Below are positions 28,812 to 43,728 of a stretch of DNA of 64,000 bases, one piece after another. A program made the position numbers and the translations under genes. The DNA comes from Escherichia phage vB_EcoS_I14: the sequence record PP892525.1, one strand, 5' to 3'. Position 1 is the first letter of the stretch. Each line of letters opens with the position of its first letter. The notes under the pieces were generated by a model that saw nothing but the letters and a program-made list of their open reading frames with translations, was not told where the DNA came from and did not search any database.

Positions 28812-29287
28812 TGTCGGTTTTCCACATTTACACAGATGGTGCTTGTAAGTCTAACCCAGGTCCGGGTGCTTGGGGTTTTATTGTCTATGATGGTAACGAC
28901 GATCGTTTAGGTTCTAAATCTGGTTATAATCCTAAAACCACAAATAATGAGATGGAACTCACAGCTATCGTAGAAGCCCTACGTTGGTCTGTTAAAAAAG
29001 ATAATAGACCAATTGCTATCTATACTGACTCTGCTTATTGCAAAAATGGCATGGAAAGTTGGATGTTTTCTTGGCAAAGGAAAGGCTGGAAGAAAGCAGA
29101 TGGTGAAGTCCCTCTTAATCTAGAACTTTGGCAGGAAGCATTTAAATTAACACAGCAGTATATCAACTTTCATAATACTAACCCTACCTTTATTAAGGTT
29201 AAAGGACATTCTGGTATTAGTGGTAATGAAGCTGTAGATGCATTGTGTAACACAGTTATTACTGAAGCTGAAATGGCTGAGATGTGA
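28811..29287 (+). CDS. rnh: ribonuclease H (RNase HI family)
   Basis: HIYTDGACKSNPGPGAWG and TNNEMEL motifs; ATG at 28811 with RBS GGGAGG. Confidence 0.8.
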   Translation: MSVFHIYTDGACKSNPGPGAWGFIVYDGNDDRLGSKSGYNPKTTNNEMELTAIVEALRWSVKKDNRPIAIYTDSAYCKNGMESWMFSWQRKGWKKADGEVPLNLELWQEAFKLTQQYINFHNTNPTFIKVKGHSGISGNEAVDALCNTVITEAEMAEM

Positions 29288-29307
29288 TAAATAAATTAAA
29301 AATTTTC

Positions 29308-29336
29308 TTGCTTAAAGCCCTCTAATTTAGTATAAT
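29308..29336 (+). promoter_or_regulatory. T5-type promoter: -35 TTGCTT, -10 TATAAT
   Basis: 17 bp spacer. Confidence 0.7.
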
Positions 29337-29363
29337 ATTCTTATTGAAAGTGAGGAGGGCTTT

Positions 29364-29642
29364 ATGCGAATTTATAACTCAAATTCACTAGGATTTAAAC
29401 CATTGAGAAAACGTGCACAATCACCTCGTCAAATAAGAAAGGCTAATATTGGTGAGCCAGAAACACGTCTTCCACCTCCTCCAGAGCAACGTTTAGTTTA
29501 TCTGGATGAAGAATTAGCTGAACGCGAAAGAAAAGCTCAGGAAGAGATTGAGCGTAAGAAAATGTGTACTGCTCCGGCGTATAATAAAGGAGCGTATCAA
29601 TATGTCTCAGATGCTGAACAAGCTAAGATGGTTGGTAGATAA
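29364..29642 (+). CDS. hypothetical protein (92 aa)
   Basis: RBS GAGGAGGG. Confidence 0.5.
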   Translation: MRIYNSNSLGFKPLRKRAQSPRQIRKANIGEPETRLPPPPEQRLVYLDEELAERERKAQEEIERKKMCTAPAYNKGAYQYVSDAEQAKMVGR

Positions 29643-29660
29643 TTTTTAAAAAAAATTCAT

Positions 29661-29689
29661 TTGCTAAACGCTTCAAATTCTCGTATAAT
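29661..29689 (+). promoter_or_regulatory. T5-type promoter: -35 TTGCTA, -10 TATAAT
   Basis: 17 bp spacer; downstream CATAAATTGATAAAC. Confidence 0.7.
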
Positions 29690-29727
29690 ATACTTCATAA
29701 ATTGATAAACAAAAAGGAAAATAAATA

Positions 29728-30243
29728 ATGGCTAAGCAGAAAAACGCAAAAACTCAAGCAGCTCCGGCAGTTAAAACTTTCCCACAGACCGAGGCTAATC
29801 GCAAAGCTCGTCTGGAACGCCACCTGCGTAAGCATCCTACCGATGCTCAGGCTGCGCAAGCACTGAATAGTCCGGCTCCGATTCGTCAGAAGCCTAAAGC
29901 TAAAAATGCCACCCGTAAATCCTACAAAATGGTTATGTATGTAGAAAATTACGGCCACAAATCTGTCTCAGTTTCCCTGAGCTTTAACGCTGGGGCTGAA
30001 TTGTTCTCTCGTAATGGTATGTCCATGAAAGACTATGAGAAAGCAGTTAACCAGAAGCGTAAACCAACAGCAGATGTATTACGTGATACTCGTGGACAGT
30101 TTGGTTCTGTTAAGCCAAATATCTTTGGCGTAGAGTATAGTAAAGATAATGTTCGTGCTCTGTGTTACGGTGTAGGCATTAAGTTCACTGGTGATTCTGC
30201 TCGTAAATCTGCTAAACCAGCTCGCAAGCGTAAAGCGAAGTAA
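29728..30243 (+). CDS. hypothetical basic (Lys/Arg-rich) protein
   Basis: 171 aa; RBS AAGGAAA. Confidence 0.5.
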   Translation: MAKQKNAKTQAAPAVKTFPQTEANRKARLERHLRKHPTDAQAAQALNSPAPIRQKPKAKNATRKSYKMVMYVENYGHKSVSVSLSFNAGAELFSRNGMSMKDYEKAVNQKRKPTADVLRDTRGQFGSVKPNIFGVEYSKDNVRALCYGVGIKFTGDSARKSAKPARKRKAK

Positions 30244-30307
30244 TAGATAAATAGGGGCAGAAGCCCCTACAATCTACTAATTCTCTAACTAATCAAGGAT
30301 ATTTTTT

Positions 30308-30523
30308 ATGTTCTCTAAGAAACCACGTTCTGTTACTGAAATCGTTGCTTCCTTTACCACTATCACTGATGAGCTTCAAGCTCGTATTGAGGCTGATCAA
30401 AAAATTGCTGCGGATATTCAGAAACAGCAGGAAGAACTCGCTTTAAAGTTGGCTGAAACCAACAAGAGTGAAAAATCTGCCCAAACTATTATGGAAAATA
30501 TCTTTAAACTGCTGGGCAAGTGA
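30308..30523 (+). CDS. hypothetical protein (71 aa)
   Basis: ORF flanked by two GNRA-type hairpins. Confidence 0.45.
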   Translation: MFSKKPRSVTEIVASFTTITDELQARIEADQKIAADIQKQQEELALKLAETNKSEKSAQTIMENIFKLLGK

Positions 30524-30564
30524 TTTAAATCAGGGGGCGAAAGCCCCTCTTATTTGGAGAAACT

Positions 30565-30801
30565 ATGCGTAATTTTGTAGCAAAGAATGATTTTAACCGT
30601 GCTAGCACTCATAAGTCCGCTAGAGATTATACACGACTTTCTAGTCATGAGGTAATGGATACCTGTTATGAAGAGCTGGAAGGTAGCTGGAATGAATGGC
30701 CCGGCCTCTCTATGGAAGAGAACTGGGATGTCAGTGAGGATATGCTTCCTGGTTTTAAAGACCCCAAGAAGTGGGAGTCTATTAAAGAGACAGCTCTTTA
30801 A
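30565..30801 (+). CDS. hypothetical protein (78 aa)
   Basis: ORF. Confidence 0.45.
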   Translation: MRNFVAKNDFNRASTHKSARDYTRLSSHEVMDTCYEELEGSWNEWPGLSMEENWDVSEDMLPGFKDPKKWESIKETAL

Positions 30802-30829
30802 TAGTTTTCTACACAATAAAGGATAAGTT

Positions 30830-31531
30830 ATGAAAGTAAAACCATTTGGTATGCTAGATATTGAATCTCTAGGAACTCCAGGAGATTGTGGTACTACTCA
30901 TATCGCAATGCCTTCTTTCGCTTTTGTGGCTATGCATGGAATTGATAAAGACCCTGATCTAGTATTTGTTACCTTAGATGTACAAGATCAACTTAATTCT
31001 GGTGCCAAAGTTACAGCATCTACTCTAGCATTCTGGATGGATCAGGCTAAACATAGCCCGTCTGCTATCCACATTATGGAAGCTATGAATGAGCGTAATC
31101 CAAAACTGATTGCCTTCCAAAATGGTAAACATCATTGCACTAATAAACTTGGCTCTAACCATGCTGCCTTCTCTATGGCTCAAAATATTATGGAGTTGGC
31201 TCTAGGTGAAAATGCTTTGTACTATGGCAATGGCCCAGAGTTTGATATGACTATCTACTCTGCAAACACTTTCCATGCTGGAACCAATGAAGAAATAGTT
31301 CCGTGGAAATTCTGGAACTTGGGTAATGTTAGATCTCTTCGTAATCTCTGGATGCAAACTGGCTATAGTTATAAAGCTCTAGAAACCGAAGGTATTAGCT
31401 GGGCAATAGCTAAAATGGAGAAGATGGACACCATTCGTTATGGGATCTATCCGGTTAAGCACGACCCAGCATTCGATGCCCTAGTTGAGAGCTATTGTGT
31501 TGCAGCTATGATCGAAAAAATGAAAATTTGA
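30830..31531 (+). CDS. putative DEDDh-type 3'-5' exonuclease (DnaQ-like fold)
   Basis: Exo I-like FGMLDIESLG; C-terminal H-x4-D in KHDPAFDALVE. Confidence 0.55.
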   Translation: MKVKPFGMLDIESLGTPGDCGTTHIAMPSFAFVAMHGIDKDPDLVFVTLDVQDQLNSGAKVTASTLAFWMDQAKHSPSAIHIMEAMNERNPKLIAFQNGKHHCTNKLGSNHAAFSMAQNIMELALGENALYYGNGPEFDMTIYSANTFHAGTNEEIVPWKFWNLGNVRSLRNLWMQTGYSYKALETEGISWAIAKMEKMDTIRYGIYPVKHDPAFDALVESYCVAAMIEKMKI

Positions 31532-31532
31532 T

Positions 31533-31561
31533 TTGCTTCCGGCTCCAAAATTCTGTATAAT
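31533..31561 (+). promoter_or_regulatory. T5-type promoter: -35 TTGCTT, -10 TATAAT
   Basis: 17 bp spacer. Confidence 0.7.
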
Positions 31562-31601
31562 ATATTCATAAATTTGAGAAAACAATAAAAGGAAAACAAA
31601 T

Positions 31602-31784
31602 ATGCCAGTATCTAAAAATGTTCGTAAAAATGGTAAGAAAGCTACTCGTAATCTGGGTATCCGTCGTATGGCTGAACGTCAATCAGGTATCCAGAAAATC
31701 TTTGATCTGCTAAATCGTGCTAATCCTAAAATTGATAACAGTAACGATACTGTTCTGCGCACCCTGCTGGCAATTGGTCTGTAA
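31602..31784 (+). CDS. hypothetical basic protein (60 aa)
   Basis: RBS AAAGGAAA. Confidence 0.45.
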   Translation: MPVSKNVRKNGKKATRNLGIRRMAERQSGIQKIFDLLNRANPKIDNSNDTVLRTLLAIGL

Positions 31785-31837
31785 TAGACCAAATTTAAAC
31801 AAATTCAAATCTCAAACTTCATATAAGGAAGCAAATA

Positions 31838-32476
31838 ATGACTACTCGTATCTCTAAAACTCGCGCTCTGGCAACTATCAAATCTCTGGAAGCTAAAATC
31901 CGTAAAGCTACTGAACAACAGCTTCTGATCGCTGTTGGTGAAGGTAAGGATAAAAACCAGGTTGTAGTTGGCGCTGCAATCGAAGTAGATGCCCTGTCTA
32001 CTCGTATTAAAACTGATTTCCAATCTCTGCTGGATATGATGTCTCAGCGTGATCGTATTAAATCTGCTCTGATTAAGAGCAATGCAGAAACAATCGTTGA
32101 GATTGGTTCTCGTAAGATGACTGTTGCGGAAGCAATTGAAGCTAAGCGTTCTATGGAGCTTAAAGCTCAGCTGCTGGCTAACATGCGTAAGCAGTTCCAT
32201 GCCGCTACGGTTAAGTTTAATACGCAGAAAGCACAGTTTGATGCTAAATATGAGCGTTTGCAGGATAGCATGGCTACCCGCGATAAGAAAACTTCCGAAG
32301 ATGAAGTTAAAATGCAGCTCAATCTGCTGGAACTCAAGAATACTCCATTCTTGATTGATCCGCTGGAACTGGAGAAGCTGATTAAGCAGCATGACGAGGA
32401 ATACCAGGACTTTGCAACAAATGTTGACTTTGTTCTATCCGAGTCTAACGCCTCTACCTTCATTGAAGTAGAGTAA
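31838..32476 (+). CDS. hypothetical protein (212 aa)
   Basis: RBS AAGGAAG; minus ORF 31805..32392 is its shadow. Confidence 0.55.
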   Translation: MTTRISKTRALATIKSLEAKIRKATEQQLLIAVGEGKDKNQVVVGAAIEVDALSTRIKTDFQSLLDMMSQRDRIKSALIKSNAETIVEIGSRKMTVAEAIEAKRSMELKAQLLANMRKQFHAATVKFNTQKAQFDAKYERLQDSMATRDKKTSEDEVKMQLNLLELKNTPFLIDPLELEKLIKQHDEEYQDFATNVDFVLSESNASTFIEVE

Positions 32477-32859
32477 TAATTTAAAAGCTAGTAAATCGGT
32501 AGACGAAAGCCCAAGCATCTTACCTCGCAGCAGCGGTTGAAATACGAGGTTAAATAAGACCGCTGACCATACTATAAAGTATAATCTATTGGAGATTATG
32601 TTTATTACACCAGCCTTTTAAGCTGACACGTAAGAACAAAGCGTCGTTGATATTACCGACACAACTTCAAAGATCAACATTTAAGTATGAAAGCTGAAAA
32701 GTTTAAAGAACTCAAACTTCTAAACTTCTAAAGCTAAAAGATGCAAAGTATTCGTTGATGATTCAAACCCTAGATCAAAGGTACATGGCTCATAAGATAT
32801 GGCCTGTGGCGCCTCTAGGCTGTTTATCGGTTTACTAGTTTCACAATTTAAAAATGTAT

Positions 32860-32888
32860 TTGCTAATTTACTAAGTTATCTGTATAAT
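32860..32888 (+). promoter_or_regulatory. T5-type promoter: -35 TTGCTA, -10 TATAAT
   Basis: 17 bp spacer. Confidence 0.7.
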
Positions 32889-32918
32889 ATATTTTTAAAT
32901 TGATGAAACGAGGCTATT

Positions 32919-33236
32919 ATGACTTTTCATATTTTGATTGATGATGTGCGTAATCTTCACGGAATGGACATTATCATTCGAACCCCAGAAGCCGCTGTAG
33001 AGTTTCTGAATAAAACTGATACCACCGGCCATTTCGTTTATATGGATAATGACTTGGCTGTAGATGGTATGGAAGGTTATCAAATTCTTCGTTTACTCTT
33101 AGAATTTGGGCAGAGACCAAAGAAAGTGGTACTAGTAACCTCGAACCCAGTAGCTAAGCAAAATATGCGTAATGATTTGCTTGACTTAGGGTATAAAGAA
33201 AATCCCAATCGTGTTGAATATGATTGGCAGGAGTAA
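32919..33236 (+). CDS. small protein resembling a CheY-like receiver (REC) domain
   Basis: ILIDDV acidic pair, FVYMDNDLAVDGMEGY candidate phospho-acceptor loop, VVLVTS, later Lys; 105 aa. Confidence 0.45.
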   Translation: MTFHILIDDVRNLHGMDIIIRTPEAAVEFLNKTDTTGHFVYMDNDLAVDGMEGYQILRLLLEFGQRPKKVVLVTSNPVAKQNMRNDLLDLGYKENPNRVEYDWQE

Positions 33237-33241
33237 AAAGA

Positions 33242-33691
33242 ATGAAGGCAGCTTTGCTTTTAGTAGCTGCCCTTACCTTCAGCTTTAGTAGTCAGGCATC
33301 GCACGATGCAAAAGAAATAGATTGCATTGCTAAAAATATCTATTTCGAGAGTCGTGGTGAGGGCATAAAGGGAATGACGGCAATTGCACATGTTACTAAA
33401 AACCGTGTAAACTCCGGTAAATTCCCAGATTCCTACTGTAAAGTAGTATATCAGTCTAACCAGTTCTCTTGGGTATCTAAGAGACCAAAAGTTGATAAAA
33501 CTGATGAGGCTTGGCAAACCGCTAAGAATTTAGCTAGAGTGATATACTACGTTGATTTACCACAAGATCCTACACATGGAGCACTATACTTCCATAGTGG
33601 TAAAGATAAACCTTACTGGACAAAGAAATTTAAGAAAACAACTAAGATTAAGGGACATACGTTTTATAAACCTGTTGTCACTAAAACTTAA
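33242..33691 (+). CDS. secreted SleB-like cell-wall hydrolase domain protein
   Basis: signal peptide MKAALLLVAALTFSFSSQA; NIYFESRGEG and ALYFHSG resemble the SleB/Hydrolase_2 family. Confidence 0.55.
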   Translation: MKAALLLVAALTFSFSSQASHDAKEIDCIAKNIYFESRGEGIKGMTAIAHVTKNRVNSGKFPDSYCKVVYQSNQFSWVSKRPKVDKTDEAWQTAKNLARVIYYVDLPQDPTHGALYFHSGKDKPYWTKKFKKTTKIKGHTFYKPVVTKT

Positions 33692-33699
33692 AAATTTAC

Positions 33700-33728
33700 T
33701 TGCTTAAATACTTAAATTTCTGTATAAT
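33700..33728 (+). promoter_or_regulatory. T5-type promoter: -35 TTGCTT, -10 TATAAT
   Basis: 17 bp spacer. Confidence 0.7.
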
Positions 33729-33759
33729 ACTTCCATAAATTAATGAGAGGAAGCGAAAT

Positions 33760-33930
33760 ATGAAATCAGTTGTAATTATTGGTGTTAACACTCGCGGTAT
33801 TCGTACTACGAAAACTGTTAAAACTTCTAACGTTGCTGAGATCACTACGAACCCTAAAAAGTTTGATTTCGCCAAAGTCTCAGCAGTTATGACAGAACAA
33901 TCTTTTAACCAAGCATTGGGGATGAAATAA
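33760..33930 (+). CDS. hypothetical small protein (56 aa), below the ORF-track length cutoff
   Basis: ATG at 33760 after RBS GAGAGGAAG; stop overlaps next start. Confidence 0.4.
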   Translation: MKSVVIIGVNTRGIRTTKTVKTSNVAEITTNPKKFDFAKVSAVMTEQSFNQALGMK

Positions 33931-34364
33931 TGGGTACGAATATGATTCGTGTGCTGCGAGAATTAATTGAAAAAGCTCGCAAACACGGTGATACTGTGTC
34001 AGTCAAGCACCTTAGTACGATTTTAGGTGACTTACAACGAATTGATAAAGATTGCGTATCTAGACTAGAGTTTACTAACTGGATTAAATCACAGTTCAAA
34101 GCAATTGAGAGTACAATGACTTCTGCTGCAAAAGCAAATATCGAGTATACTCCAGATGCTGAATATCTCGACTTGTTAGCAGGTCTAGAGTATGAATATG
34201 CTCTAGAGCAGTTAACTGAAGTTCAGATTCGTGAGTATTTTGCAGAACTGGTTAAATTAAACCCAGGTATTACCAAAGCTCTATTAATGAAAACTATTAA
34301 GGCAGAATTTCCTGGACGTTATGACGGTAAAACAACTGCTTTGATTGCTAGTGAATTTTTCTAA
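33930..34364 (+). CDS. hypothetical protein (144 aa)
   Basis: ORF. Confidence 0.5.
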   Translation: MGTNMIRVLRELIEKARKHGDTVSVKHLSTILGDLQRIDKDCVSRLEFTNWIKSQFKAIESTMTSAAKANIEYTPDAEYLDLLAGLEYEYALEQLTEVQIREYFAELVKLNPGITKALLMKTIKAEFPGRYDGKTTALIASEFF

Positions 34365-34372
34365 AAATTCAC

Positions 34373-34401
34373 TTGCTAAATGCTTATAAATTCTGTATAA
34401 T
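34373..34401 (+). promoter_or_regulatory. T5-type promoter at the head of the tRNA array: -35 TTGCTA, -10 TATAAT
   Basis: 17 bp spacer. Confidence 0.7.
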
Positions 34402-34477
34402 ATATTCATAAATTAGAGAGTAATTTCTATCTAATTTATAAATAGTGGGGTGTGGAAATCACTTATGTAGTAACACT

Positions 34478-34549
34478 GCCGTCCTAGTATAATTGGTATT
34501 ATCAAGCCGTAACTGGTGGAAGATGTAGGTTCGAATCCTACGGTCGGTA
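34478..34549 (+). tRNA. tRNA-like element (degenerate; anticodon arm does not fold)
   Basis: canonical T arm GTAGG-TTCGAAT-CCTAC and acceptor GCCGTCC/GGTCGGT with mismatches. Confidence 0.35.
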
Positions 34550-35052
34550 AGAACTGGATAACTGATGCTTTTAACGTAAAAGCTTCCGAGGTTAGTTGCG
34601 CACTGCCTAAACCACGCGGTAGTTGGTTCCAGACTAACCAACCAGTCTGCTGAATAGTTTTATTACGATTTAACTATGTCCAGGCTAAAGAAGAACTTTA
34701 GAAGGTATTTCTAGGATAGTGAAGTTCTTTCTCCATATCGGAGTAGTTTTTCAAGCTATCCACAAAGTGGGAAATGCTGACATGAGAGATGTCACTAATG
34801 GTGCACAATAGCACAGGTAATTCGCGATAACTCCTGTTGAGTAGCAGCAAAAGGCGGGAAGTCATGACCCCAAGCCTAACCGAGTCCTCAATATACCGCA
34901 GGACATAACCACTAAGTCACCCTGACTTAAACTGGAAAATAATAGACGTTACTGTATTTTGTCTTGAAATACTTAATGAGTGAGACTTATGATTCTCCCG
35001 GTATCGTCTGTATTTTTAAGAGTTTTTACGAGAGTTCTTAAAAATACTTAAA

Positions 35053-35127
35053 CGGGGTGTAGTCTAATGGAGAGGCAGGAGTCTTCTAAATTCCTTTATG
35101 CAGGTTCGAATCCTGTCACCTCGGCCA
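35053..35127 (+). tRNA. tRNA-Arg (anticodon TCT)
   Basis: acceptor CGGGGTG/CACCTCG, anticodon loop CTTCTAA, T loop TTCGAAT, encoded CCA. Confidence 0.8.
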
Positions 35128-35161
35128 ATTTTATTAACTGTAACTAAAACAAAGGAAACAT

Positions 35162-36109
35162 ATGTTTAATACTAAAAATATGAAAGAATTGACTTCTGAG
35201 CAGAAAGTAATTCGTACTATTAAACGTTGGGGTATTGGTGCTATAGTTGGTTTAGCAGGTTTAATCCTAGCTTTTAATTCGTATACCATTGTTTCTGATG
35301 GTACGGTTAAAACCCAAACATTCCTGGGTAAAGTAGACCCTAATCCAGTATTACCTGGTTTCCATCTTGTAAACCCGTTTGCATCTTTCGATACTTTTAG
35401 TACAAAAGATATTGCTGTAAAATTAGATAAACTTCAGGTTCCTAGCCAGGATAAGTTTAAATCCACTGTTGACCTGACTGTTATGTTGCAGTTTGATGGT
35501 TCTAAGGCACCAATTAACCGTATTAACGCAGGTACTCAGGATCAAGCGTTAGACAAGTATGTAACTGAAAAATTACTGTCTACTATTCGTGAGTTTGGTA
35601 AGTCTGTACCTAAAGCACAAGATTTGTTTGATGCTAAAATTCAGGCTCAATTGCAAACCGCAATTCAACAAGAAGTTGAAGAGTATGCACGCCCATATGG
35701 TTACACAGTTAAGCAGGTATTCCTTCAGGATATTACTCTACCACCAGTAATCATGGAACAGGTACAGAATACCAAAGTTCGTGAAGAGCAAGTTAATGCT
35801 GCGAAAGCTGAATTGGCTCGTGTTGAACAGGAAGCACAGCAAAAAGTTAAACAAGCAGAAGCAGATCGTGAAGCTCGCAACAACCAAGCTATTGCTAATG
35901 AACGTGACGCAGATGCTAAACTGTACGCAGCTAAGAAAGAAGCTGAAGCTAACGCCGCACTGCAACGTACCATTACTCCTGAGATGATTCGTTGGAAACA
36001 ACTGGAAGTTGAGATGATTCGTGCTCAGAAATATCAAGGTGGTGTACCGCAGACTGTGGTTGGCACTGGCTATGATGGCCAAATGATTATGGATATGCGT
36101 AATAAATAA
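35162..36109 (+). CDS. SPFH/band-7 (prohibitin/HflC-like) membrane protein
   Basis: N-terminal TM helix GIGAIVGLAGLILAF, SPFH-like core, Ala/Glu/Gln-rich coiled-coil tail; 315 aa. Confidence 0.65.
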   Translation: MFNTKNMKELTSEQKVIRTIKRWGIGAIVGLAGLILAFNSYTIVSDGTVKTQTFLGKVDPNPVLPGFHLVNPFASFDTFSTKDIAVKLDKLQVPSQDKFKSTVDLTVMLQFDGSKAPINRINAGTQDQALDKYVTEKLLSTIREFGKSVPKAQDLFDAKIQAQLQTAIQQEVEEYARPYGYTVKQVFLQDITLPPVIMEQVQNTKVREEQVNAAKAELARVEQEAQQKVKQAEADREARNNQAIANERDADAKLYAAKKEAEANAALQRTITPEMIRWKQLEVEMIRAQKYQGGVPQTVVGTGYDGQMIMDMRNK

Positions 36110-36134
36110 TACCCGCACGTAACATCTGAAGTGA

Positions 36135-36170
36135 GCCCTGCGTTCCCTGGAGAGCGCAGGGCTTTTCTAT
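36135..36170 (+). terminator. rho-independent terminator
   Basis: 8 bp stem GCCCTGCG/CGCAGGGC followed by TTTTCTAT. Confidence 0.75.
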
Positions 36171-36205
36171 ATAATGTATTTGTAAATCTAACTAGGAGAT
36201 CAAAT

Positions 36206-36724
36206 ATGAATGTTGATGAGCTAATACAGCACCTCTTATCTAGGGGATTTGATACAGATAAATATCATTGCTGGTTAAGTCCGGAAGGATGGCTAACAGT
36301 CCCGTTGTATGACTTCTCTGGGATGTTGAGAGGCTATCAGACTTATAATCCTTCTGCTCCCAAAAGGCAGGGTAAGTGCCCATTTGAAGCTAAATATTTT
36401 ACCCATTCTACTACACAGTGTGTATGGGGGCTAGAAACTCTCAATGGAGATGAAAAAGTAGTATTGATTGCTGAATCTGTATTTAAGGCAGTTGCGTTAC
36501 ATAACGCTGGTTATCCCGCCCTAGCAATGTTGGGTTCTTCTCCGGGAAAAGCATTATTAAAGCAACTGAAATTACTACCTTTTAAATTGATAGCTATTGG
36601 TGACAATGATCCCGATGGTGAAAAATTTGCTAGAAAATTAAACGGCTTTGTTTCTCCCGTAGATGTGGATGAGATGTCTACCGAAAACTTGAAAAATTTT
36701 CTTGCTATGAAGCTAAATTTCTAA
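36206..36724 (+). CDS. small Toprim-domain protein
   Basis: VVLIAESVFKA (conserved Glu) and IAIGDNDPDGEKF (DxD); ATG at 36206 with RBS AGGAG. Confidence 0.5.
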   Translation: MNVDELIQHLLSRGFDTDKYHCWLSPEGWLTVPLYDFSGMLRGYQTYNPSAPKRQGKCPFEAKYFTHSTTQCVWGLETLNGDEKVVLIAESVFKAVALHNAGYPALAMLGSSPGKALLKQLKLLPFKLIAIGDNDPDGEKFARKLNGFVSPVDVDEMSTENLKNFLAMKLNF

Positions 36725-36730
36725 TATAAT
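36702..36730 (+). promoter_or_regulatory. T5-type promoter overlapping the 3' end of the Toprim ORF
   Basis: -35 TTGCTA 36702-36707, -10 TATAAT 36725-36730; tRNA-Ser begins 16 nt downstream. Confidence 0.65.
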
Positions 36731-36745
36731 ATATCTTATAAATTC

Positions 36746-36834
36746 GGAAGAATAGCATAACGGTATTGCAGCAGATTGCTAATCTGTCGGTTTGAAATAT
36801 AGCCTTGTGGGTTCGATTCCCACTTCTTCCGCCA
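36746..36834 (+). tRNA. tRNA-Ser (anticodon GCT), long variable arm
   Basis: acceptor GGAAGAA/TTCTTCC, anticodon loop TTGCTAA, T loop TTCGATT, encoded CCA. Confidence 0.8.
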
Positions 36835-36840
36835 GATTTT

Positions 36841-36918
36841 GGTTCTCAAGCTCATATGGTATGAGCACCCGGCTCATAACCGGAAGGTACGTAGGTTCGA
36901 ATCCTCGGGGAGCCACCA
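36841..36918 (+). tRNA. tRNA with anticodon CAT (Met, fMet or Ile-lysidine)
   Basis: anticodon loop CTCATAA; acceptor GGTTCTC/GGGAGCC; T stem imperfect. Confidence 0.6.
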
Positions 36919-37134
36919 ATTAAATAGAGGTCACAAATGGATCTATATATATAGTTTATGTTGTGTTTATCCAAGATAGAGAATACCCGGATGAATATAA
37001 AAAAGGATATAGGTTAGCCAGAGCTACTTCTGAAGCCCAAGCTATGGATAAAGTGGCAGATTATATGATTACAGTAGAAAACGTACACTATATCGACTAC
37101 CTTGAAGCCTCAAAAGTAATTGACTAAACTACAT

Positions 37135-37211
37135 GGGGGTGTAATCGAATTGGCATAGGTACTGGACTTAAAATTCAGGTTTTGTGGGTTCGAATCCCAC
37201 CACCCCTACCA
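37135..37211 (+). tRNA. tRNA with anticodon TAA on a short-variable-loop scaffold
   Basis: acceptor GGGGGTG/CACCCCT, anticodon stem CTGGA/TTCAG with loop CTTAAAA, T arm GTGGG-TTCGAAT-CCCAC, CCA; D arm weak. Confidence 0.55.
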
Positions 37212-37226
37212 AATTAAGGAAATAAG

Positions 37227-37394
37227 ATGTATAGACATCCACCTCCGCCAACACGTCGTTCTAGAGAAGTTATCCTCATGGAATTAACTAAAAACTTCAA
37301 GGCAACTCTTGAAGATAGAGATCTAGGCACGGATGAAGACATTGATTTTATTTGTAGACTACTAAAGATGAAACTGGAGAAACAACATGGCTAA
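37227..37394 (+). CDS. hypothetical small protein (55 aa), below the ORF-track cutoff
   Basis: ATG at 37227 after RBS AAGGAAA; stop overlaps next start (ATGGCTAA). Confidence 0.4.
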   Translation: MYRHPPPPTRRSREVILMELTKNFKATLEDRDLGTDEDIDFICRLLKMKLEKQHG

Positions 37395-37593
37395 TCCTGA
37401 AATTACCGCACAACGTTTCATGCTTAAAGGCATGATTGCTGAAGCAGGTATGACTCAAGAGGTTGCAGACTTTCATAAGCAAATTCTTGATATTATAACT
37501 CTAGCTAAAGAGACTGGAGAAAAAGAGCACGCAGCAGCAATTATGGCTATATCTCTTATTAGTCTAGACTTGGCTGAAGAATCTGGAGTTTAG
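37387..37593 (+). CDS. hypothetical protein (68 aa)
   Basis: ORF. Confidence 0.45.
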   Translation: MANPEITAQRFMLKGMIAEAGMTQEVADFHKQILDIITLAKETGEKEHAAAIMAISLISLDLAEESGV

Positions 37594-37623
37594 CTCCTCC
37601 AAACAGAATTTTTAAAAATGTAC

Positions 37624-37653
37624 TTGCCTTTTGCTTTAAATTTCTGATATAAT
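37624..37653 (+). promoter_or_regulatory. T5-type promoter: -35 TTGCCT, -10 TATAAT
   Basis: 18 bp spacer; RBS AAGGAG before 37684. Confidence 0.6.
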
Positions 37654-37683
37654 AGTTATATAAATTGATGAAGGAGTTAACGA

Positions 37684-37959
37684 ATGCAAAATCGTGTTGT
37701 AGCAGCTGGTATTGAAAGTGCAATCTGTAAATCCTGGGAAGGCTGGGAAGGTGAGATTGAATGGCTTTATTTCTACGATGTAGAACTTCTTCCAGAAGTT
37801 AAAGCTAAATGTGTTGAAGCTGGCATGGCTCCAGATGCAAAAGCTGATATTGATATTTCAATGTCTGAACTTAAAGGTCGTGTAATTACTGTTGGTGATG
37901 AGGGCGAAGAAGTTTTCGAACTTCCGTTCTCCTTAACTGTCACTCCTAAGTTCGACTAA
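37684..37959 (+). CDS. hypothetical acidic protein (91 aa)
   Basis: ORF. Confidence 0.5.
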   Translation: MQNRVVAAGIESAICKSWEGWEGEIEWLYFYDVELLPEVKAKCVEAGMAPDAKADIDISMSELKGRVITVGDEGEEVFELPFSLTVTPKFD

Positions 37960-37995
37960 CTAATACAGCACTGAGCAAGTTCTTTAAAATTTGAC

Positions 37996-38024
37996 TTGCT
38001 CAGTGCCTTAAAACTTGGTATAAT
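37996..38024 (+). promoter_or_regulatory. T5-type promoter: -35 TTGCTC (overlapping TTGACT), -10 TATAAT
   Basis: 17 bp spacer; drives tRNA-Tyr. Confidence 0.6.
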
Positions 38025-38087
38025 AGTTATCTAATTTGGAAACATATTTAAAAGTGTTTAAACTAATATTTGAATACTTTTAAATAT

Positions 38088-38175
38088 GGGCGTTTATTCC
38101 GTAAGTGGTAGCGGAGGGGATTGTAAATCCCTGGTCATTGCGACTCGAGTGGTTCGACTCCATTAACGCCCACCA
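38088..38175 (+). tRNA. tRNA-Tyr (anticodon GTA), long variable arm
   Basis: acceptor GGGCGTT/AACGCCC, anticodon loop TTGTAAA, T loop TTCGACT, CCA. Confidence 0.8.
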
Positions 38176-38192
38176 AATTAAAGGTAAAGGAT

Positions 38193-38684
38193 ATGTATAT
38201 TGATAGGATAATTCAAGAAGCTGCAAATAGGGGTATTATACAGTTAGGTTCACCCGCTGATATAAACAAAGATCTAATATTAGAGAGCCTCACATTTGGT
38301 ACAGCTAACTTTGGTCGCGATAGTAATCGTCGGTATAGTTTGAAGTTATCTGCTCTATCTTTTATCAAGTATAACAAAAGTATTGGAGAAAAATCCAGCT
38401 GTGGTTTTATTTATGCAATAACTAACCCAGCTTGGGATAACTATGTAAAAATTGGTATGTCTTCTGATCCTAAAACAAGATTAGGAAATTACCAGACTTA
38501 CTCTCCTTTACGTGATTATAAGTTAATACATTGGTCATTTTGGTTTAATGCTAGAGAAGCTGAGAAAATGCTTCATAATAGCTTTCCCGAACGGCTTAAT
38601 GAATGGGTAGTATTAGATAGAAGTGTAGATGAAATACTTTCTGAGTTTAATAATCTATCCAATAAACAATTTAAGTCCTGTTAG
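38193..38684 (+). CDS. GIY-YIG motif protein (homing-endonuclease-like)
   Basis: CGFIYAITNPAWDNYVKIGMSS...R...Y matches the GIY-(10)-YIG pattern, unusually in the C-terminal half. Confidence 0.5.
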   Translation: MYIDRIIQEAANRGIIQLGSPADINKDLILESLTFGTANFGRDSNRRYSLKLSALSFIKYNKSIGEKSSCGFIYAITNPAWDNYVKIGMSSDPKTRLGNYQTYSPLRDYKLIHWSFWFNAREAEKMLHNSFPERLNEWVVLDRSVDEILSEFNNLSNKQFKSC

Positions 38685-40813: not shown

Positions 40814-40962
40814 ACACTATAAAGTTTACTTATTATGTAGGTTCCGATAGATCGGCGGGTCTATTCTGGCATTTAAGAGAAGTCTCGCAAACTTTTTTGT
40901 CAGCCGTGGGGTTGGTAGCCTCCAGGTGGCCTACACAATAAGTAAATTTATTAAAAATTCAT

Positions 40963-40991: not shown

Positions 40992-41023
40992 ATATTTTAT
41001 AAAGTGAAGAGAAGGAAAGCAAA

Positions 41024-41182
41024 ATGAAACACAAGATAGCTCAAGTCTTTATGGCATTATGGTGTATGCCAATAGCTATAACAGCATTTAATCTAGATAC
41101 TTTTACTATAGAAGAAAAATATATCGGATTAGTTAGCGGCTTTAGTATGCTGGGCTTATCTTTGCTGTGGTTAAAGAAATAA
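41024..41182 (+). CDS. hypothetical small membrane protein (52 aa), below the ORF-track cutoff
   Basis: ATG at 41024 after RBS AAGGAAAG; hydrophobic. Confidence 0.4.
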   Translation: MKHKIAQVFMALWCMPIAITAFNLDTFTIEEKYIGLVSGFSMLGLSLLWLKK

Positions 41183-41186
41183 TATT

Positions 41187-41713: not shown

Positions 41714-42073
41714 TTGCAAATGCAATTATCAAGCAAGGTTCAAGGCTATTTCGGTCATGTAACAATGGAGTTCGCTATCTCTAAAGGTTGGGACTTCGAA
41801 CAAGATTTAGCTGAGTTCTACAAAGATATTGATCTGAACGTACCATATATGGGACTTTCTACTGGTCAGGAGATCACAGAAGCCGATGTATTCAAGGCAA
41901 GTCAAGGTGAGGTAACACCTAGTTTTGCCGAGTTCTGGTTAGGCATTACGTTAAAAGAAGATGCACCAGATAGTGGTGTACTAATGTCTAGTTTGCACTC
42001 TGGAAGTTCCGATTACCTTTTCATTAGCGATGTTAAGGAAATACAAGAAGTCTGCAAAAATGTACTTGCTTGA
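41714..42073 (+). CDS. hypothetical protein (119 aa)
   Basis: RBS AAGGAA; 3' end overlaps next promoter. Confidence 0.5.
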   Translation: MQMQLSSKVQGYFGHVTMEFAISKGWDFEQDLAEFYKDIDLNVPYMGLSTGQEITEADVFKASQGEVTPSFAEFWLGITLKEDAPDSGVLMSSLHSGSSDYLFISDVKEIQEVCKNVLA

Positions 42074-42094
42074 TGCTTAATTTCTTGTTATAAT
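42066..42094 (+). promoter_or_regulatory. T5-type promoter: -35 TTGCTT, -10 TATAAT, driving a non-coding transcript
   Basis: 17 bp spacer; no ORF follows, only a structured region and then tRNA-Ala. Confidence 0.65.
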
Positions 42095-42120
42095 ATTTAT
42101 ATAAATTGATGAGGATTTCT

Positions 42121-42310
42121 CCTCATCATAGTTCACTAAGGTATTAGCTCGACCTAGGACTGGCTGCCAAAAAGCACGATCCCTACGATTCGGGAGAAGT
42201 TCTAGATTAGTCCACTAGATTCAGCGGCAACTGAATAGTGTATTGGGTTTGCGAGATGACGCGGTTCCTTCCGCTCGAAGCGAAGGTGCTGTAGTTACGC
42301 CGAGCTAATA
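42121..42310 (+). ncRNA. candidate structured small RNA of about 190 nt
   Basis: terminal clamp ATTAGCTCG (42143-42151) pairing with CGAGCTAAT (42301-42309); internal hairpins GCGGTTCCTTCCGC and CTTCGC/GCGAAG; no ORF. Confidence 0.4.
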
Positions 42311-42332
42311 GCCTTAGTAAACTAAAGAATTT

Positions 42333-42406
42333 GGGGATATAGTTTAATGGTAGAACATCTGCTTTGCACGCAGAAGACGAGGGTTCAACTCCCTCTTTCT
42401 CCACCA
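42333..42406 (+). tRNA. tRNA-Ala (anticodon TGC)
   Basis: anticodon stem TCTGC/GCAGA with loop TTTGCAC, T arm GAGGG-TTCAACT-CCCTC, CCA; one U-U in acceptor. Confidence 0.7.
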
Positions 42407-42412
42407 AAATTC

Positions 42413-42497
42413 GGGGCTATGCTGGAACTGGTAGACAATACGGCCTTAGATTCCGTAGCTTAAATGCGTGGGAGTTCGAGTCTCCCTAGCCCCACCA
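42413..42497 (+). tRNA. tRNA-Leu (anticodon TAG), long variable arm
   Basis: perfect acceptor GGGGCTA/TAGCCCC, anticodon loop CTTAGAT, T arm GGGAG-TTCGAGT-CTCCC, CCA. Confidence 0.75.
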
Positions 42498-42513: not shown

Positions 42514-43098
42514 ATGCAGTTTGTACCAATAAAAGATGCACCAGGGTATTTAGTAAATGAAACAGGGGATGTGTTATCTACATTTACTAATAAAATTTTA
42601 TCAAGATATATAGTTGATGGATACCCTGCTGTAAAATTACAGATAAATGGTAAGCAAACTTCGGTACTTATACACCGAATTATTTCTCATGTATTTGGGG
42701 ACTTATATAATCTATTTGACCCTGAATTAGAAGTAGATCACAAGGATAGAGATAGGCTGAATCTATCTAAAGATAATCTTCAAGTTTTATCAAAAATAGA
42801 ACATCAGAAGAAAACTAATAAAGATAATGGATGGTCTGATAGTAGAGTACCTTGCCCCTTATGTGGAAATCTAATGCTTCAGAGATCAGTAACATGTACA
42901 AATTGTAAGCCAAAACCTACAGGAAAGTTAATAAAACCAGAGTTGTCCTTAGAAGACATAACTGAAAAGGTTTTATTAATGGGGTGGGTTAAGGCAGCTA
43001 AAGATCTAGAAGTATCAGAGTCCACTTTACGTAGACGATATACTAAACTAACCGGATTAAGCCCAAAAGTATTAACAGAACAACGGAAAAGCAAATAG
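42514..43098 (+). CDS. HNH homing endonuclease-like protein
   Basis: HNH motif in VDHKDRDRLNLSKDNLQVLSKIEHQ plus C-terminal Cys cluster; embedded in tRNA array. Confidence 0.7.
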   Translation: MQFVPIKDAPGYLVNETGDVLSTFTNKILSRYIVDGYPAVKLQINGKQTSVLIHRIISHVFGDLYNLFDPELEVDHKDRDRLNLSKDNLQVLSKIEHQKKTNKDNGWSDSRVPCPLCGNLMLQRSVTCTNCKPKPTGKLIKPELSLEDITEKVLLMGWVKAAKDLEVSESTLRRRYTKLTGLSPKVLTEQRKSK

Positions 43099-43285: not shown

Positions 43286-43651
43286 AATCTTGAAGTATGC
43301 CGGAATCGGTAGACGGGGCTGCCTAAAAGGTTTATAGGGAACATCCACTCCCTGCAACATACCTCATAAAGCGGCTGAGATAAATGGTCTATCTCGTGAA
43401 GGTTCAAGTCCTTCTGCTTCTTGATACATCTATGGCTCAAAGTGTAACGGTGCTATTTGATGCTCTTGGTAAGACTTCCCCGACATGCGTTCGGGAGTAA
43501 GCTGCTAAGGCTAGGGTAGAAGAGTTTCTGAGAGCCGCCACAATTGAAAATTCGTACTCGTCTTGAGCTGCGTGCAATAGGAGATAACTTGATTAGTATT
43601 CTAGAACATGCTAATTGAGGAAGGTTTCGCTAACCCTGCGAGTTTTCAATT

Positions 43652-43728
43652 GTGGCTATATCATAATTGGTTAATGATCCTGATTGTGAATCAGGCCTAT
43701 GTGGATTCGAATTCCACTAGCCACCCCA
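43652..43728 (+). tRNA. tRNA-His (anticodon GTG)
   Basis: perfect acceptor GTGGCTA/TAGCCAC, anticodon stem CCTGA/TCAGG with loop TTGTGAA, T arm GTGGA-TTCGAAT-TCCAC, CCA. Confidence 0.85.

What the first reader, a model, noticed from the sequence alone, without database searches (positions are those of the whole stretch)
42066..42312. Promoter-driven structured RNA of about 190 nt with no ORF, upstream of tRNA-Ala
A full T5-type promoter (TTGCTT, 17 bp, TATAAT) at 42066-42094 is followed by a hairpin GATGAGGATTTCTCCTCATC and then a domain clamped by ATTAGCTCG (42143-42151) and CGAGCTAAT (42301-42309), with internal hairpins. No start codon with an RBS follows the promoter; the next gene is tRNA-Ala at 42333. 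A dedicated strong promoter for a non-coding structured RNA suggests a functional small RNA.
Basis: seen in the sequence. Interest (0 to 1): 0.7.

Follow-up and report, generated by a model that had tools for sequence, protein, structure and literature searches.

The report
Phage T5 stable RNA "RNA2H"
This is the window's copy of RNA2H, a 172-nt structured non-coding RNA already annotated in phages T5 and BF23 as a stable RNA of unknown function, so it is real and conserved but not a new discovery.

Summary
A T5-class promoter (-35 at 42066-42071, -10 at 42089-42094), a leader hairpin (42107-42128) and a stem-clamped non-coding domain lie upstream of tRNA-Ala, with no credible ORF.

It is the orthologue of "RNA2H, stable RNA with unknown functions" and "promoter P13b", annotated in GenBank for T5 (AY543070) and BF23. 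Mapped onto the window, the mature RNA is 42142-42313 (172 nt).

No Rfam family matches it. None of about 8 million open-access papers and preprints names it.

New here:
- The clamp is a 21-bp helix, not 9 bp.
- A diverged subfamily sits at the same locus in Klebsiella Sugarlandvirus phages. This gives strong covariation: 22 of 49 pairs change on both sides and 97.7% of cells are paired.
- The core is probably a hairpin-loop pseudoknot, flanked by swappable peripheral arms.
- The annotated ends fall mid-helix with a 2-bp 3' stagger. A second T5 stable RNA, RNAIV, shows a 1-bp stagger. This points to excision by RNase III, which is an inference.

Function remains unknown. The RNA is dispensable: T5 deletion mutants are viable and natural deletions exist.

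Verdict: a real, conserved, structured phage RNA that is already known as an entity. Interest is moderate.

The parts
42066..42094 (+). Early promoter, orthologue of T5/BF23 P13b: -35 TTGCTT at 42066-42071, 17-nt spacer, extended -10 TGtTATAAT at 42086-42094. The predicted start is about 42101.
   Evidence: Sequence. Annotated as promoter P13b in BF23 and T5 and as a T5-consensus promoter in AKFV33. The pattern class is 26 observed against 0.46 expected in the window. The start site is inferred from the -10 spacing and was not measured.
42107..42128 (+). Leader hairpin (9 bp, 4-nt loop) in the roughly 41-nt 5' leader that is removed from the mature RNA. It is not a conserved part of the RNA.
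   Evidence: It lies outside the annotated mature RNA. It is absent in Sugarlandvirus, where helix P1 starts about 2 nt after the predicted start. Many relatives carry a roughly 95-nt insert in its place. The loop in this window is flipped relative to most relatives.
42130..42151 (+). 5' strand of closing helix P1: outer part 42130-42141 (AGUUCACUAAGG), inner part 42142-42151 (UAUUAGCUCG). The annotated mature 5' end is U42142.
   Evidence: Between the T5-type and Sugarlandvirus forms, 6 P1 pairs change on both sides, 3 change on one side, and pairing is 100%.
42142..42313 (+). Mature RNA2H, 172 nt, as annotated in T5 and BF23 and mapped onto the window.
   Evidence: BF23 misc_RNA at L001 2588-2759 and T5 at 31808..31979. 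Identity to T5 over 42128-42326 is 99.0%.
42157..42161 (+). S1 (GGACU), the proposed 5' strand of a pseudoknot with the loop of hairpin H (AGUCC, 42209-42213).
   Evidence: Duplex energy is -7.3 kcal/mol, and hairpin H plus the pseudoknot is energetically on a par with the nested minimum-energy fold. The Sugarlandvirus counterpart AGYC/GRCU shows C-G, U-A and U.G. There is no covariation within the T5-type, and one relative ('ende') has a mismatch. Moderate support.
42162..42177 (+). Conserved A-rich linker GGCUGCC-AAAAA-GCAC. GCAC (42174-42177) may pair with GUGU (42238-42241) as helix Px.
   Evidence: CC-A(n)-RCAC is conserved in both subfamilies and the A-run varies in length. Px is 100% paired but shows only one-sided changes. 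Weak support.
42178..42197 (+). Variable hairpin, a swappable peripheral arm.
   Evidence: Epseptimavirus, the SB13 lineage and Sugarlandvirus each have a longer, unrelated hairpin at the same point. The basal pairs covary.
42201..42219 (+). Hairpin H: UCUAG (42201-42205), loop AUUAGUCCA (42206-42214), CUAGA (42215-42219).
   Evidence: The SB13 lineage has two compensatory pairs. Between subfamilies, 3 of 5 pairs change on both sides. The competing minimum-energy helix CUAGGACU/AGUUCUAG is not kept in Sugarlandvirus.
42220..42235 (+). Hairpin P3: UUCAG, loop CGGCAA, CUGAA. The loop motif GG(C/U)AA is conserved.
   Evidence: 3 of 5 pairs change on both sides between subfamilies. Loop variants are tabulated.
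42236..42250 (+). Conserved mostly single-stranded block UAGUGUAUUGGGUUU.
   Evidence: AGUGUAUYG..UUUG is conserved in both subfamilies.
42251..42300 (+). Arm 3, a long hairpin closed by GCG/CGC that abuts the 3' strand of P1. This window carries the 'type 1' version.
   Evidence: Two unrelated sequence versions both fold as long hairpins. The closing pair C-G changes to U-A, and 7 internal pairs change on both sides.
42301..42323 (+). 3' strand of P1: inner part 42301-42310 (CGAGCUAAUA), bulged G42311, outer part 42312-42323 (CCUUAGUAAACU). The annotated mature 3' end is C42313.
   Evidence: The annotated ends lie on opposite strands in the middle of the helix with a 2-bp 3' stagger. This is derived and is an inference.
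42333..42497 (+). Downstream tRNA-Ala (42333-42406) and tRNA-Leu (42413-42497), co-transcribed from P13b.
   Evidence: No promoter or + strand terminator lies between them and RNA2H. Co-transcription is inferred.

Best explanation
The feature is the orthologue of bacteriophage T5/BF23 RNA2H. Host sigma-70 RNA polymerase starts at the early promoter P13b, at about 42101. It transcribes a short leader, the RNA2H domain, and then tRNA-Ala and tRNA-Leu as one precursor.

The sequences flanking RNA2H pair into a 21-bp helix, P1. I infer that host RNase III cuts both strands of this helix, after G42141 and after C42313. This would release a 172-nt RNA with a 10-bp terminal stem and a 3' GCC overhang, and would free the tRNA precursor.

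The released RNA has a compact conserved core. Hairpin H has a loop that probably pairs with an upstream GGACU to form a pseudoknot. The core also holds hairpin P3 with a conserved GG(C/U)AA loop, an A-rich linker and a conserved AGUGUAUYG block. Two peripheral arms are freely exchanged between phages.

The most likely mode of action is as a stable trans-acting RNA that binds a host or phage factor early in infection. It is an accessory function and is not needed for growth on laboratory E. coli.

Shown: identity, conservation, the helices, and the lack of coding capacity. Taken from database annotation: stability and the mature ends. Inferred: RNase III, the pseudoknot and the trans-acting role.
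For: Identity:
- 99.0% identical to T5 across the feature annotated rna2H in AY543070. BF23 carries the same RNA 2H and promoter P13b annotation, with 172-nt ends that I checked on the sequence.
- A 1982 paper on cloning genes for T5 stable RNAs exists, seen in a reference list.

Non-coding:
- No + strand ORF longer than 21 aa. The arms are replaced by unrelated sequences that still fold.

Structure:
- Covariance model R1, built from T5-type sequences, finds the Sugarlandvirus RNAs full length at 92-99 bits, E about 1e-27.
- On the joint alignment, 97.7% of cells pair and 22 of 49 pairs change on both sides. Slid controls give 7 or fewer. The covariation score is 0.425 against 0.10 or less for slid controls.
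- Pairs changed on both sides: P1 6, H 3, P3 3.
- Many G.U pairs fix the + strand as the functional one.

Processing:
- P1 is 21 bp.
- The annotated ends give cuts between pairs 12 and 13 on the 5' strand and between pairs 11 and 10 on the 3' strand. This is a 2-bp 3' stagger.
- UAAGG|NAUUA and UAAUN-G-CC|UUA around these ends are invariant in both subfamilies, while neighbouring pairs covary.
- A second T5/BF23 stable RNA, RNAIV (window 40835-40937), also has its annotated ends in the middle of a 20-bp flanking helix, with a 1-bp 3' stagger.

Accessory role:
- The viable T5 deletions 29191-32442 and 30661-38625 remove the locus. FFH1 carries a natural deletion.

Independent module:
- EPS7 and two other phages have a CDS rather than a tRNA after it.
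Against: - No experiment on function is accessible, and no open-access paper names the RNA.
- The mature ends come from GenBank annotation, and I could not see its experimental basis.
- The RNAIV stagger is 1 bp, not 2.
- The 3' GCC tail also fits a tRNA-like end made by RNase P plus exonuclease trimming.
- Within the T5-type, the pseudoknot strands are invariant, so they are untested there. One relative has a mismatch.
- The nested minimum-energy fold uses a competing helix and is about as stable.
- The joint alignment was fitted to the model structure, which inflates the percentage paired.
- Most covariation is a single split between two clades.
- Dispensability and natural deletions would also fit an RNA of little consequence.
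Confidence: 0.6

Rival explanations
1. It is only a cis-acting processing cassette. The P1 helix and its contents exist to direct cleavage and stabilise or release the downstream tRNA-Ala/tRNA-Leu precursor. The excised 172-nt piece would be a by-product with no activity of its own.
For: It lies directly upstream of tRNA-Ala in both the T5-type and Sugarlandvirus forms, and is co-transcribed with no terminator between. It is dispensable and sometimes deleted in nature. The most strictly conserved bases surround the presumed cleavage sites.
Against: A processing helix does not need about 150 nt of interior. Yet the interior hairpins H and P3 and the AGUGUAUYG block are conserved, with compensatory changes across genera. 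The RNA is retained where a CDS rather than a tRNA follows. It is annotated as a stable RNA, meaning it accumulates.
Confidence: 0.2
2. It is a tRNA-end mimic. The 10-bp terminal stem with a 3' GCC tail would behave like an acceptor minihelix. RNase P would make the 5' end, exonucleases would trim the 3' end, and CCA-adding enzyme could add the A. The RNA would then act as a decoy or substrate for tRNA-handling enzymes or tRNA-targeting defence nucleases.
For: The mature 3' end is G-C-C directly after the stem, which resembles discriminator plus CC. P1 inner abuts the arm-3 closing helix, which allows coaxial stacking. It is embedded in a tRNA cluster, and T5 tRNAs are known to counter a tRNA-cleaving defence system (PARIS).
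Against: Neither ARAGORN nor the Rfam tRNA model matches any variant, even at E up to 10. No T-loop-like motif is evident. In the precursor, the GCC is base-paired to the leader within a continuous 21-bp helix, which favours RNase III over RNase P. The PARIS suppressor was mapped to tRNA-Lys, not to this RNA.
Confidence: 0.12
3. It is a conformational switch. The strand CUAGGACU pairs either with AGUUCUAG (the nested fold) or with the loop of hairpin H (the pseudoknot fold), and the choice regulates processing or downstream expression.
For: Two mutually exclusive pairings have similar energy in the window RNA. Both subfamilies have alternative partners for the 3' strand of H.
Against: The nested alternative helix is not conserved in Sugarlandvirus, where most of its positions fail to pair. 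There is no expression platform such as a terminator or a sequestered ribosome-binding site. No ligand or signal is suggested by anything found here.
Confidence: 0.05
4. It is protein-coding or antisense: a small protein on either strand, or a minus-strand transcript.
For: Gene callers placed minus-strand 'hypothetical protein' CDSs over it in several genomes. A 66-aa minus-strand ORF exists in the window.
Against: These ORFs are not conserved across the swapped arms. The minus-strand ORF runs into the tRNA-Ala gene. G.U pairs in conserved helices would be C.A mismatches on the other strand. The promoter and all tRNAs are on the + strand.
Confidence: 0.02

Closest known systems
RNA2H of bacteriophages T5 and BF23 (GenBank AY543070 rna2H; NC_042564 'RNA 2H'), with promoter P13b
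   Same: Same locus downstream of tRNA-Val and upstream of tRNA-Ala and tRNA-Leu. The window has an extra 119-aa ORF (41714-42073) between tRNA-Val and the promoter. Same promoter, 99.0% (T5) and 97.0% (BF23) identity over 42128-42326, and the same 172-nt span.
   Different: Only point differences, plus a flipped leader-hairpin loop in the window. This is the same entity.
Sugarlandvirus (Klebsiella phages Sugarland, Spivey, Sealy, phiKp_27, VAC51) RNA at the tRNA-Glu/tRNA-Ala interval, unannotated
   Same: Same promoter type, the same position upstream of tRNA-Ala, and the same architecture (P1 with a bulged G, H, P3, arm 3). Full-length hits to the T5-type covariance model at 92-99 bits.
   Different: No leader hairpin. 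P1, H and P3 have different sequences that still pair. The S1/H-loop pairing is AGYC/GRCU rather than GGACU/AGUCC.
RNAIV of T5/BF23, another 'stable RNA with unknown functions' in the same tRNA region (window 40835-40937)
   Same: Excised from the middle of a roughly 20-bp helix formed by flanking sequence, with three internal hairpins, and located in the tRNA cluster.
   Different: 103 nt. No detectable sequence or model similarity (R1 scores only 9.9 bits, on the opposite strand). It lies upstream of a promoter rather than downstream of one.
RNase III processing stalks (rRNA operon 16S/23S stems; phage T7 early RNase III sites; the 5' region of the T4 tRNA cluster)
   Same: A helix of about two turns formed by sequences flanking the product, cut on both strands with a 2-nt 3' stagger. 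This resemblance rests on established knowledge and on the title of McClain 1979, seen in a reference list.
   Different: RNase III cleavage has not been demonstrated here. The product is a 172-nt orphan RNA, not rRNA or mRNA.
Phage T4 species 1 and species 2 RNAs (rnaC, rnaD)
   Same: Small stable RNAs of unknown function, encoded inside a phage tRNA gene cluster and matured from the tRNA precursor. This comparison is from my own knowledge and was not tested here.
   Different: No sequence relationship was sought or found. Host range and size differ.
Bacterial and phage Y-RNA-like RNAs (YrlA)
   Same: A long terminal stem with a bulge plus a structured module. Some are phage-encoded near tRNAs. 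This comparison is from my own knowledge.
   Different: No Rfam match at E up to 10. No tRNA-like T/D-arm module. No rsr gene in the context.

Membership tests
T5/BF23 RNA2H (annotated stable RNA) | Sequence homology to the annotated rna2H feature | tested here: met
   99.0% identity to T5 AY543070 over 199 nt, with the match lying on rna2H. 97.0% to the complete BF23 genome, and 94.7% over the longer query to NC_042564.
T5/BF23 RNA2H (annotated stable RNA) | Same genomic position: promoter P13b, then the RNA, then tRNA-Ala and tRNA-Leu | tested here: met
T5/BF23 RNA2H (annotated stable RNA) | Accumulates as a discrete stable species of about 172 nt in infected cells | not testable with these tools
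   This rests on the GenBank annotation. The primary papers are not held in the library.
tRNA / tRNA-like RNA | Cloverleaf recognised by ARAGORN or by the Rfam tRNA model | tested here: not met
   No hit within 42100-42330 or in any variant, even at E up to 10.
Any curated Rfam family (4227 models) | Covariance-model match at or near the gathering score | tested here: not met
   The best non-tRNA hit overlapping the RNA is STnc400, minus strand, 21.9 bits against a gathering score of 80. Nothing matched on the Epseptimavirus or Sugarlandvirus variants.
RNase III substrate | Double helix of about 20 bp or more | tested here: met
   P1 is 21 bp with one mismatch and one bulge, conserved with 6 compensatory pairs.
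RNase III substrate | Product ends on opposite strands with a 2-nt 3' overhang | tested here: inconclusive
   The annotated ends give a 2-bp 3' stagger, plus the bulged G, for RNA2H and a 1-bp stagger for RNAIV. The ends come from annotation, not from data I could inspect.
RNase III substrate | Cleavage depends on the rnc gene | not testable with these tools
   Needs an experiment.
H-type pseudoknot RNA | A hairpin loop pairs with an external strand, and the pairing is kept by covariation | tested here: inconclusive
   T5-type GGACU/AGUCC is invariant, with one U.G and one mismatch. Sugarlandvirus AGYC/GRCU shows C-G, U-A and U.G. The register differs by one column between subfamilies.
Protein-coding gene | A conserved ORF with a start codon and ribosome-binding site | tested here: not met
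   The largest + strand ORF is 21 aa, starts with TTG, and is not conserved across arm types.

The most novel reading that the evidence does not exclude
RNA2H, and perhaps RNAIV, may represent an unrecognised class of RNase III-excised, pseudoknotted phage RNAs that act in trans on a host factor. One possibility is a decoy for a nuclease or a defence system.

Another is a binder of a tRNA anticodon loop. The conserved P3 loop reads GGC-AA in 43 of 45 T5-type sequences and GGU-AA in 7 of 7 Sugarlandvirus sequences. Both are complementary to the UUGCC of the E. coli tRNA-Gly(GCC) anticodon loop.
Probability: 0.15. Interest if true: 0.7.

Novelty: already known. Interest (0 to 1): 0.38.

Why it matters
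T5 is a classic model phage, and T5-like phages are widely used for biocontrol and in anti-phage defence studies. Its tRNA region is now known to carry counter-defence functions, such as the tRNA-Lys that neutralises PARIS.

RNA2H is strongly promoted and is conserved in more than 400 sequenced phages, with a diverged form in about 80 Klebsiella phages. It is highly structured. Yet it has no Rfam family, no accessible literature and no known function, and gene callers routinely mis-annotate it as a minus-strand hypothetical protein.

The structure model, the second subfamily and the processing hypothesis given here make it directly testable. They could also seed an Rfam family. If the RNA turns out to bind a host nuclease, a defence protein or a tRNA, it would add a non-tRNA RNA effector to the T5 counter-defence repertoire.

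Tried and rejected
- Rfam at gathering score, and at E up to 10, on the window, three Epseptimavirus and one Tequintavirus variants, and two Sugarlandvirus loci. Only the tRNAs matched.
- blastn of the core against 5,426 complete E. coli genomes gave no match, so it is not a copy of a host RNA.
- Open-access literature: four topical searches and a direct search for 'RNA2H' found nothing on this RNA. The primary papers are not held.
- A 14-nt core motif scanned against viral contigs gave mostly chance hits and wasted a scan.
- A P1-junction pattern scan of viral contigs, followed by the covariance model, found no further subfamily.
- A metagenome pattern scan found only T5-type and Sugarlandvirus-type copies plus three chance hits.
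- The promoter match in Klebsiella phage Sugarland from the first search was an unrelated ligase-gene promoter.
- The minimum-energy helix CUAGGACU/AGUUCUAG and the lower part of P3 were rejected as conserved features. They fail in Sugarlandvirus and are weakened in the SB13 lineage.
- The small hairpin GGCU/AGC(A)C rests on one compensatory change in one phage, and Sugarlandvirus has no equivalent. I left it out of the model.
- A resemblance of the Sugarlandvirus sequence GAAACGCC...GUAGAGUGU to 5S rRNA was considered and dropped, because no 5S model hit appeared.
- The roughly 95-nt leader insert is not strongly structured overall (z = -1.0), although one of its stems covaries.
- The region 40998-41186, downstream of the neighbouring promoter, is a small coding gene and not another RNA.

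Full report
**What is there.** The window is the tRNA region of a T5-like phage. ARAGORN finds 24 tRNA genes, all on the + strand, between 35053 and 45691.
- TTGCTT at 42066-42071, a 17-nt spacer, and TATAAT at 42089-42094 preceded by TG.
- A perfect 9-bp hairpin at 42107-42128.
- The inverted repeat ATTAGCTCG (42143-42151) and CGAGCTAAT (42301-42309).
- tRNA-Ala at 42333.

The clamp is larger than reported. Arms 42142-42151/42301-42310 and 42130-42141/42312-42323 form 21 base pairs, interrupted by one C.A mismatch and one bulged G. The promoter belongs to a real phage class, because TTGCT-N17-19-TATAAT occurs 26 times in the window against 0.46 expected. No + strand ORF longer than 21 aa lies inside. 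No + strand terminator or second promoter separates the element from tRNA-Ala. The segment 42100-42332 folds at -85.8 kcal/mol, z = -5.9. The mature part alone gives z = -2.4.

**Identity.** blastn against phage genomes finds the element in hundreds of T5-like phages. With the promoter removed, 427 records match, each at one or at most two places (429 places in all). Two records carry a curated annotation. BF23 (NC_042564) has 'promoter P13b' followed by 'RNA 2H, stable RNA with unknown functions', 172 nt. T5 (AY543070) has the same features at 31808..31979. I checked the annotated ends on the BF23 sequence. Mapped to the window, the mature RNA is 42142-42313, running from 5'-UAUUAGCUCG to CGAGCUAAUAGCC-3'. 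So the finding rediscovers a known but uncharacterised RNA.

[quoted passage not shown] No open-access paper contains 'RNA2H'. Rfam 15 has no matching family for the window, for three Epseptimavirus and one Tequintavirus variants, or for the Klebsiella-phage form. The core has no similarity to any of 5,426 E. coli genomes.

**Variation within T5-like phages.** Alignments A1 and A2 show a mosaic. Three blocks are almost invariant:
- P1.
- ACCUAGGACUGGCUGCC-AAAAA-GCAC.
- AGUUCUAGAUUAGUCCACUAGAUUCAG...CUGAAUAGUGUAUYGGGUUUG.

Two arms are replaced wholesale. The small hairpin at 42178-42197 is a longer, unrelated hairpin in Epseptimavirus, and different again in the SB13 lineage. Arm 3 (42251-42300) exists in two unrelated versions that both form long hairpins and whose closing pair switches from C-G to U-A.

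The leader is also unstable. Many phages carry a roughly 95-nt insert in place of the short hairpin, and this window has the hairpin loop flipped. FFH1 has lost most of the RNA. EPS7 and two other phages have a CDS, not a tRNA, after it. Viable T5 mutants deleted for 29191-32442 or 30661-38625 lack the locus. The RNA is therefore a self-contained and dispensable module.

**A second subfamily.** A 30-nt match in Klebsiella phage vB_Kpn_3 led to Sugarlandvirus phages (Spivey, Sealy, phiKp_27, VAC51, Sugarland). These carry a diverged RNA behind the same type of promoter and in front of tRNA-Ala. 79 records cover at least 80% of that query. A covariance model built only from T5-type sequences finds them full length at 92-99 bits, E about 1e-27. 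Pattern scans of viral and metagenome contigs, checked with the model, found no third subfamily.

**Structure.** On the joint model-guided alignment of 16 T5-type and 7 Sugarlandvirus sequences, the nested model pairs 97.7% of cells. 22 of 49 pairs change on both sides. Slid controls give at most 7 such pairs and a covariation score of at most 0.10, against 0.425 observed. Support per helix:

| Helix | Pairs changed on both sides | Notes |
|---|---|---|
| P1 | 6 | 100% paired |
| Hairpin H | 3 | Two further independent compensations in the SB13 lineage |
| P3 | 3 | |
| Arm 3 | 7 | |
| Arm 3 closing helix | 1 | |

The helix that single-sequence folding prefers, CUAGGACU/AGUUCUAG, is not kept in Sugarlandvirus. 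Instead, in both subfamilies the loop of H is complementary to the upstream strand. This is GGACU/AGUCC in the T5-type and AGYC/GRCU in Sugarlandvirus, where C-G, U-A and U.G are all seen. That suggests an H-type pseudoknot. Hairpin H plus the pseudoknot is about as stable as the nested fold. A further helix, GCAC/GUGU, is always pairable but shows only one-sided changes.

Two caveats apply. The alignment was fitted to the model, and most of the covariation is one split between two clades.

**Processing (inference).** The annotated ends lie on opposite strands in the middle of the 21-bp helix. The 5' strand is cut between pairs 12 and 13, and the 3' strand between pairs 11 and 10. This is a 2-bp 3' stagger, with the bulged G adding a third overhanging base. 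The sequence around these points, UAAGG|NAUUA and UAAUN-G-CC|UUA, is invariant in both subfamilies while the neighbouring pairs covary.

While checking for similar helices, I found that another annotated T5/BF23 stable RNA, RNAIV (window 40835-40937), is likewise cut out of the middle of a 20-bp flanking helix, with a 1-bp 3' stagger. A two-turn helix cut on both strands with a short 3' stagger is the signature of RNase III. A 1979 paper title in a reference list also links RNase III to T4 tRNA synthesis. I rate RNase III at roughly 0.6. The main alternative is a tRNA-like end (stem plus 3' GCC) made by RNase P and exonucleases.

**Function.** Nothing accessible tests function. Several features argue for a trans-acting RNA that binds some factor rather than a mere processing signal:
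- A conserved core and expendable arms.
- Accumulation as a stable RNA.
- An early promoter.
- Retention even when no tRNA follows.

The processing-cassette reading remains a serious rival, at about 0.2. One speculative lead is that the P3 loop keeps GGC-AA or GGU-AA. Both are complementary to the anticodon loop of tRNA-Gly(GCC), a sequence I recalled from memory.

**Verdict.** As an entity the RNA is already known. What is added here is the structure with covariation, the Sugarlandvirus subfamily, the modular anatomy and the RNase III hypothesis. Interest is moderate: this is a 40-year-old orphan RNA of a model phage that is now easy to test.

Noticed in passing
window 40822-40949: A second stem-clamped structured RNA. 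It has a 20-bp helix (arms 40822-40841/40930-40949, one A.C mismatch) enclosing three hairpins, with minimum free energy -46.4 kcal/mol and z = -4.4. It is the orthologue of T5/BF23 RNAIV (window 40835-40937), whose annotated ends also fall mid-helix with a 1-bp 3' stagger.
   Followed up: partly
window 43537-43554 / 43639-43656: An 18-nt inverted repeat, 94% complementary, with 84 nt between the arms. It spans the position of BF23 RNAIII immediately 5' of tRNA-His, and its 3' arm runs into the tRNA-His gene.
   Followed up: no
window 42109-42128: The centre of the leader hairpin is the reverse complement of that in most relatives (GAGGAUUUCUCCUC against GAGGAGAAAUCCUC). This is a hairpin-loop inversion. 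Two metagenome contigs (L174, L175) share it.
   Followed up: partly
L003 356-465, L009, L151, L153, L154, L155: Many relatives (GSP044, S132, Ob_P, S126, SelmaRatti, PHZ191) carry a roughly 95-nt insert in place of the short leader hairpin. Its long-range stem GAUAUCAG/CUGAUAUC has a compensatory change in SelmaRatti. Overall folding is unremarkable (z = -1.0) and there is no Rfam hit.
   Followed up: partly
L010 (phage FFH1) 380-448: A natural deletion removes most of RNA2H, joining GCTCGA to AGCGAAGG, while keeping the promoter, the leader and the 3' strand of P1. Phages phiAPCEc03 and Eos match only the promoter and leader part of the query.
   Followed up: partly
L156 (Klebsiella phage vB_Kpn_3) 405-640: A chimeric copy. 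It has a Sugarlandvirus-type interior 5' half joined to a 3' half identical to the Epseptimavirus type. A leader-like sequence sits where the P1 5' strand should be, so inner P1 cannot pair. It is probably a recombination product near tRNA-Ala.
   Followed up: partly
L153 (phage S126); L152 (phage ende): S126 has a 7-nt tandem duplication (AATAGTG) just 3' of P3. In ende, the H loop reads AGUAC instead of AGUCC, which puts a mismatch into the proposed pseudoknot.
   Followed up: no
window 36841-36915 and 34478-34549: The Rfam tRNA model scores 40.3 and 35.5 bits here, but ARAGORN calls no tRNA. These are probably the tRNA-like or pseudo-tRNA RNAs annotated in T5/BF23.
   Followed up: no
L008 320-463 and 537-641; L144 222-365 and 439-543; L160 324-422: Automated annotation placed minus-strand 'hypothetical protein' CDSs over RNA2H in phages SB13, PMBT31 and VAC51. 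These are almost certainly false gene calls.
   Followed up: partly
window 41714-42073: A 119-aa ORF lies between tRNA-Val and the promoter, and its stop overlaps the -35 element. It is present in AKFV33, EPS7 and others but absent in T5 and BF23, where the promoter directly follows tRNA-Val.
   Followed up: no
window 42514-43098: A 194-aa ORF just after tRNA-Leu corresponds to the T5 H-N-H homing endonuclease F-TflI (hegC). The tRNA gene that follows RNA2H differs between relatives (several tRNA-Ala alleles, or a CDS). This fits endonuclease-driven exchange at this junction.
   Followed up: partly
window 42225-42230 (P3 loop): The loop triplet is GGC in 43 of 45 T5-type sequences and GGU in 7 of 7 Sugarlandvirus sequences, always followed by AA. 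Both are complementary to the anticodon loop of tRNA-Gly(GCC). Two singleton variants (GUC, GAC) break the pattern.
   Followed up: no
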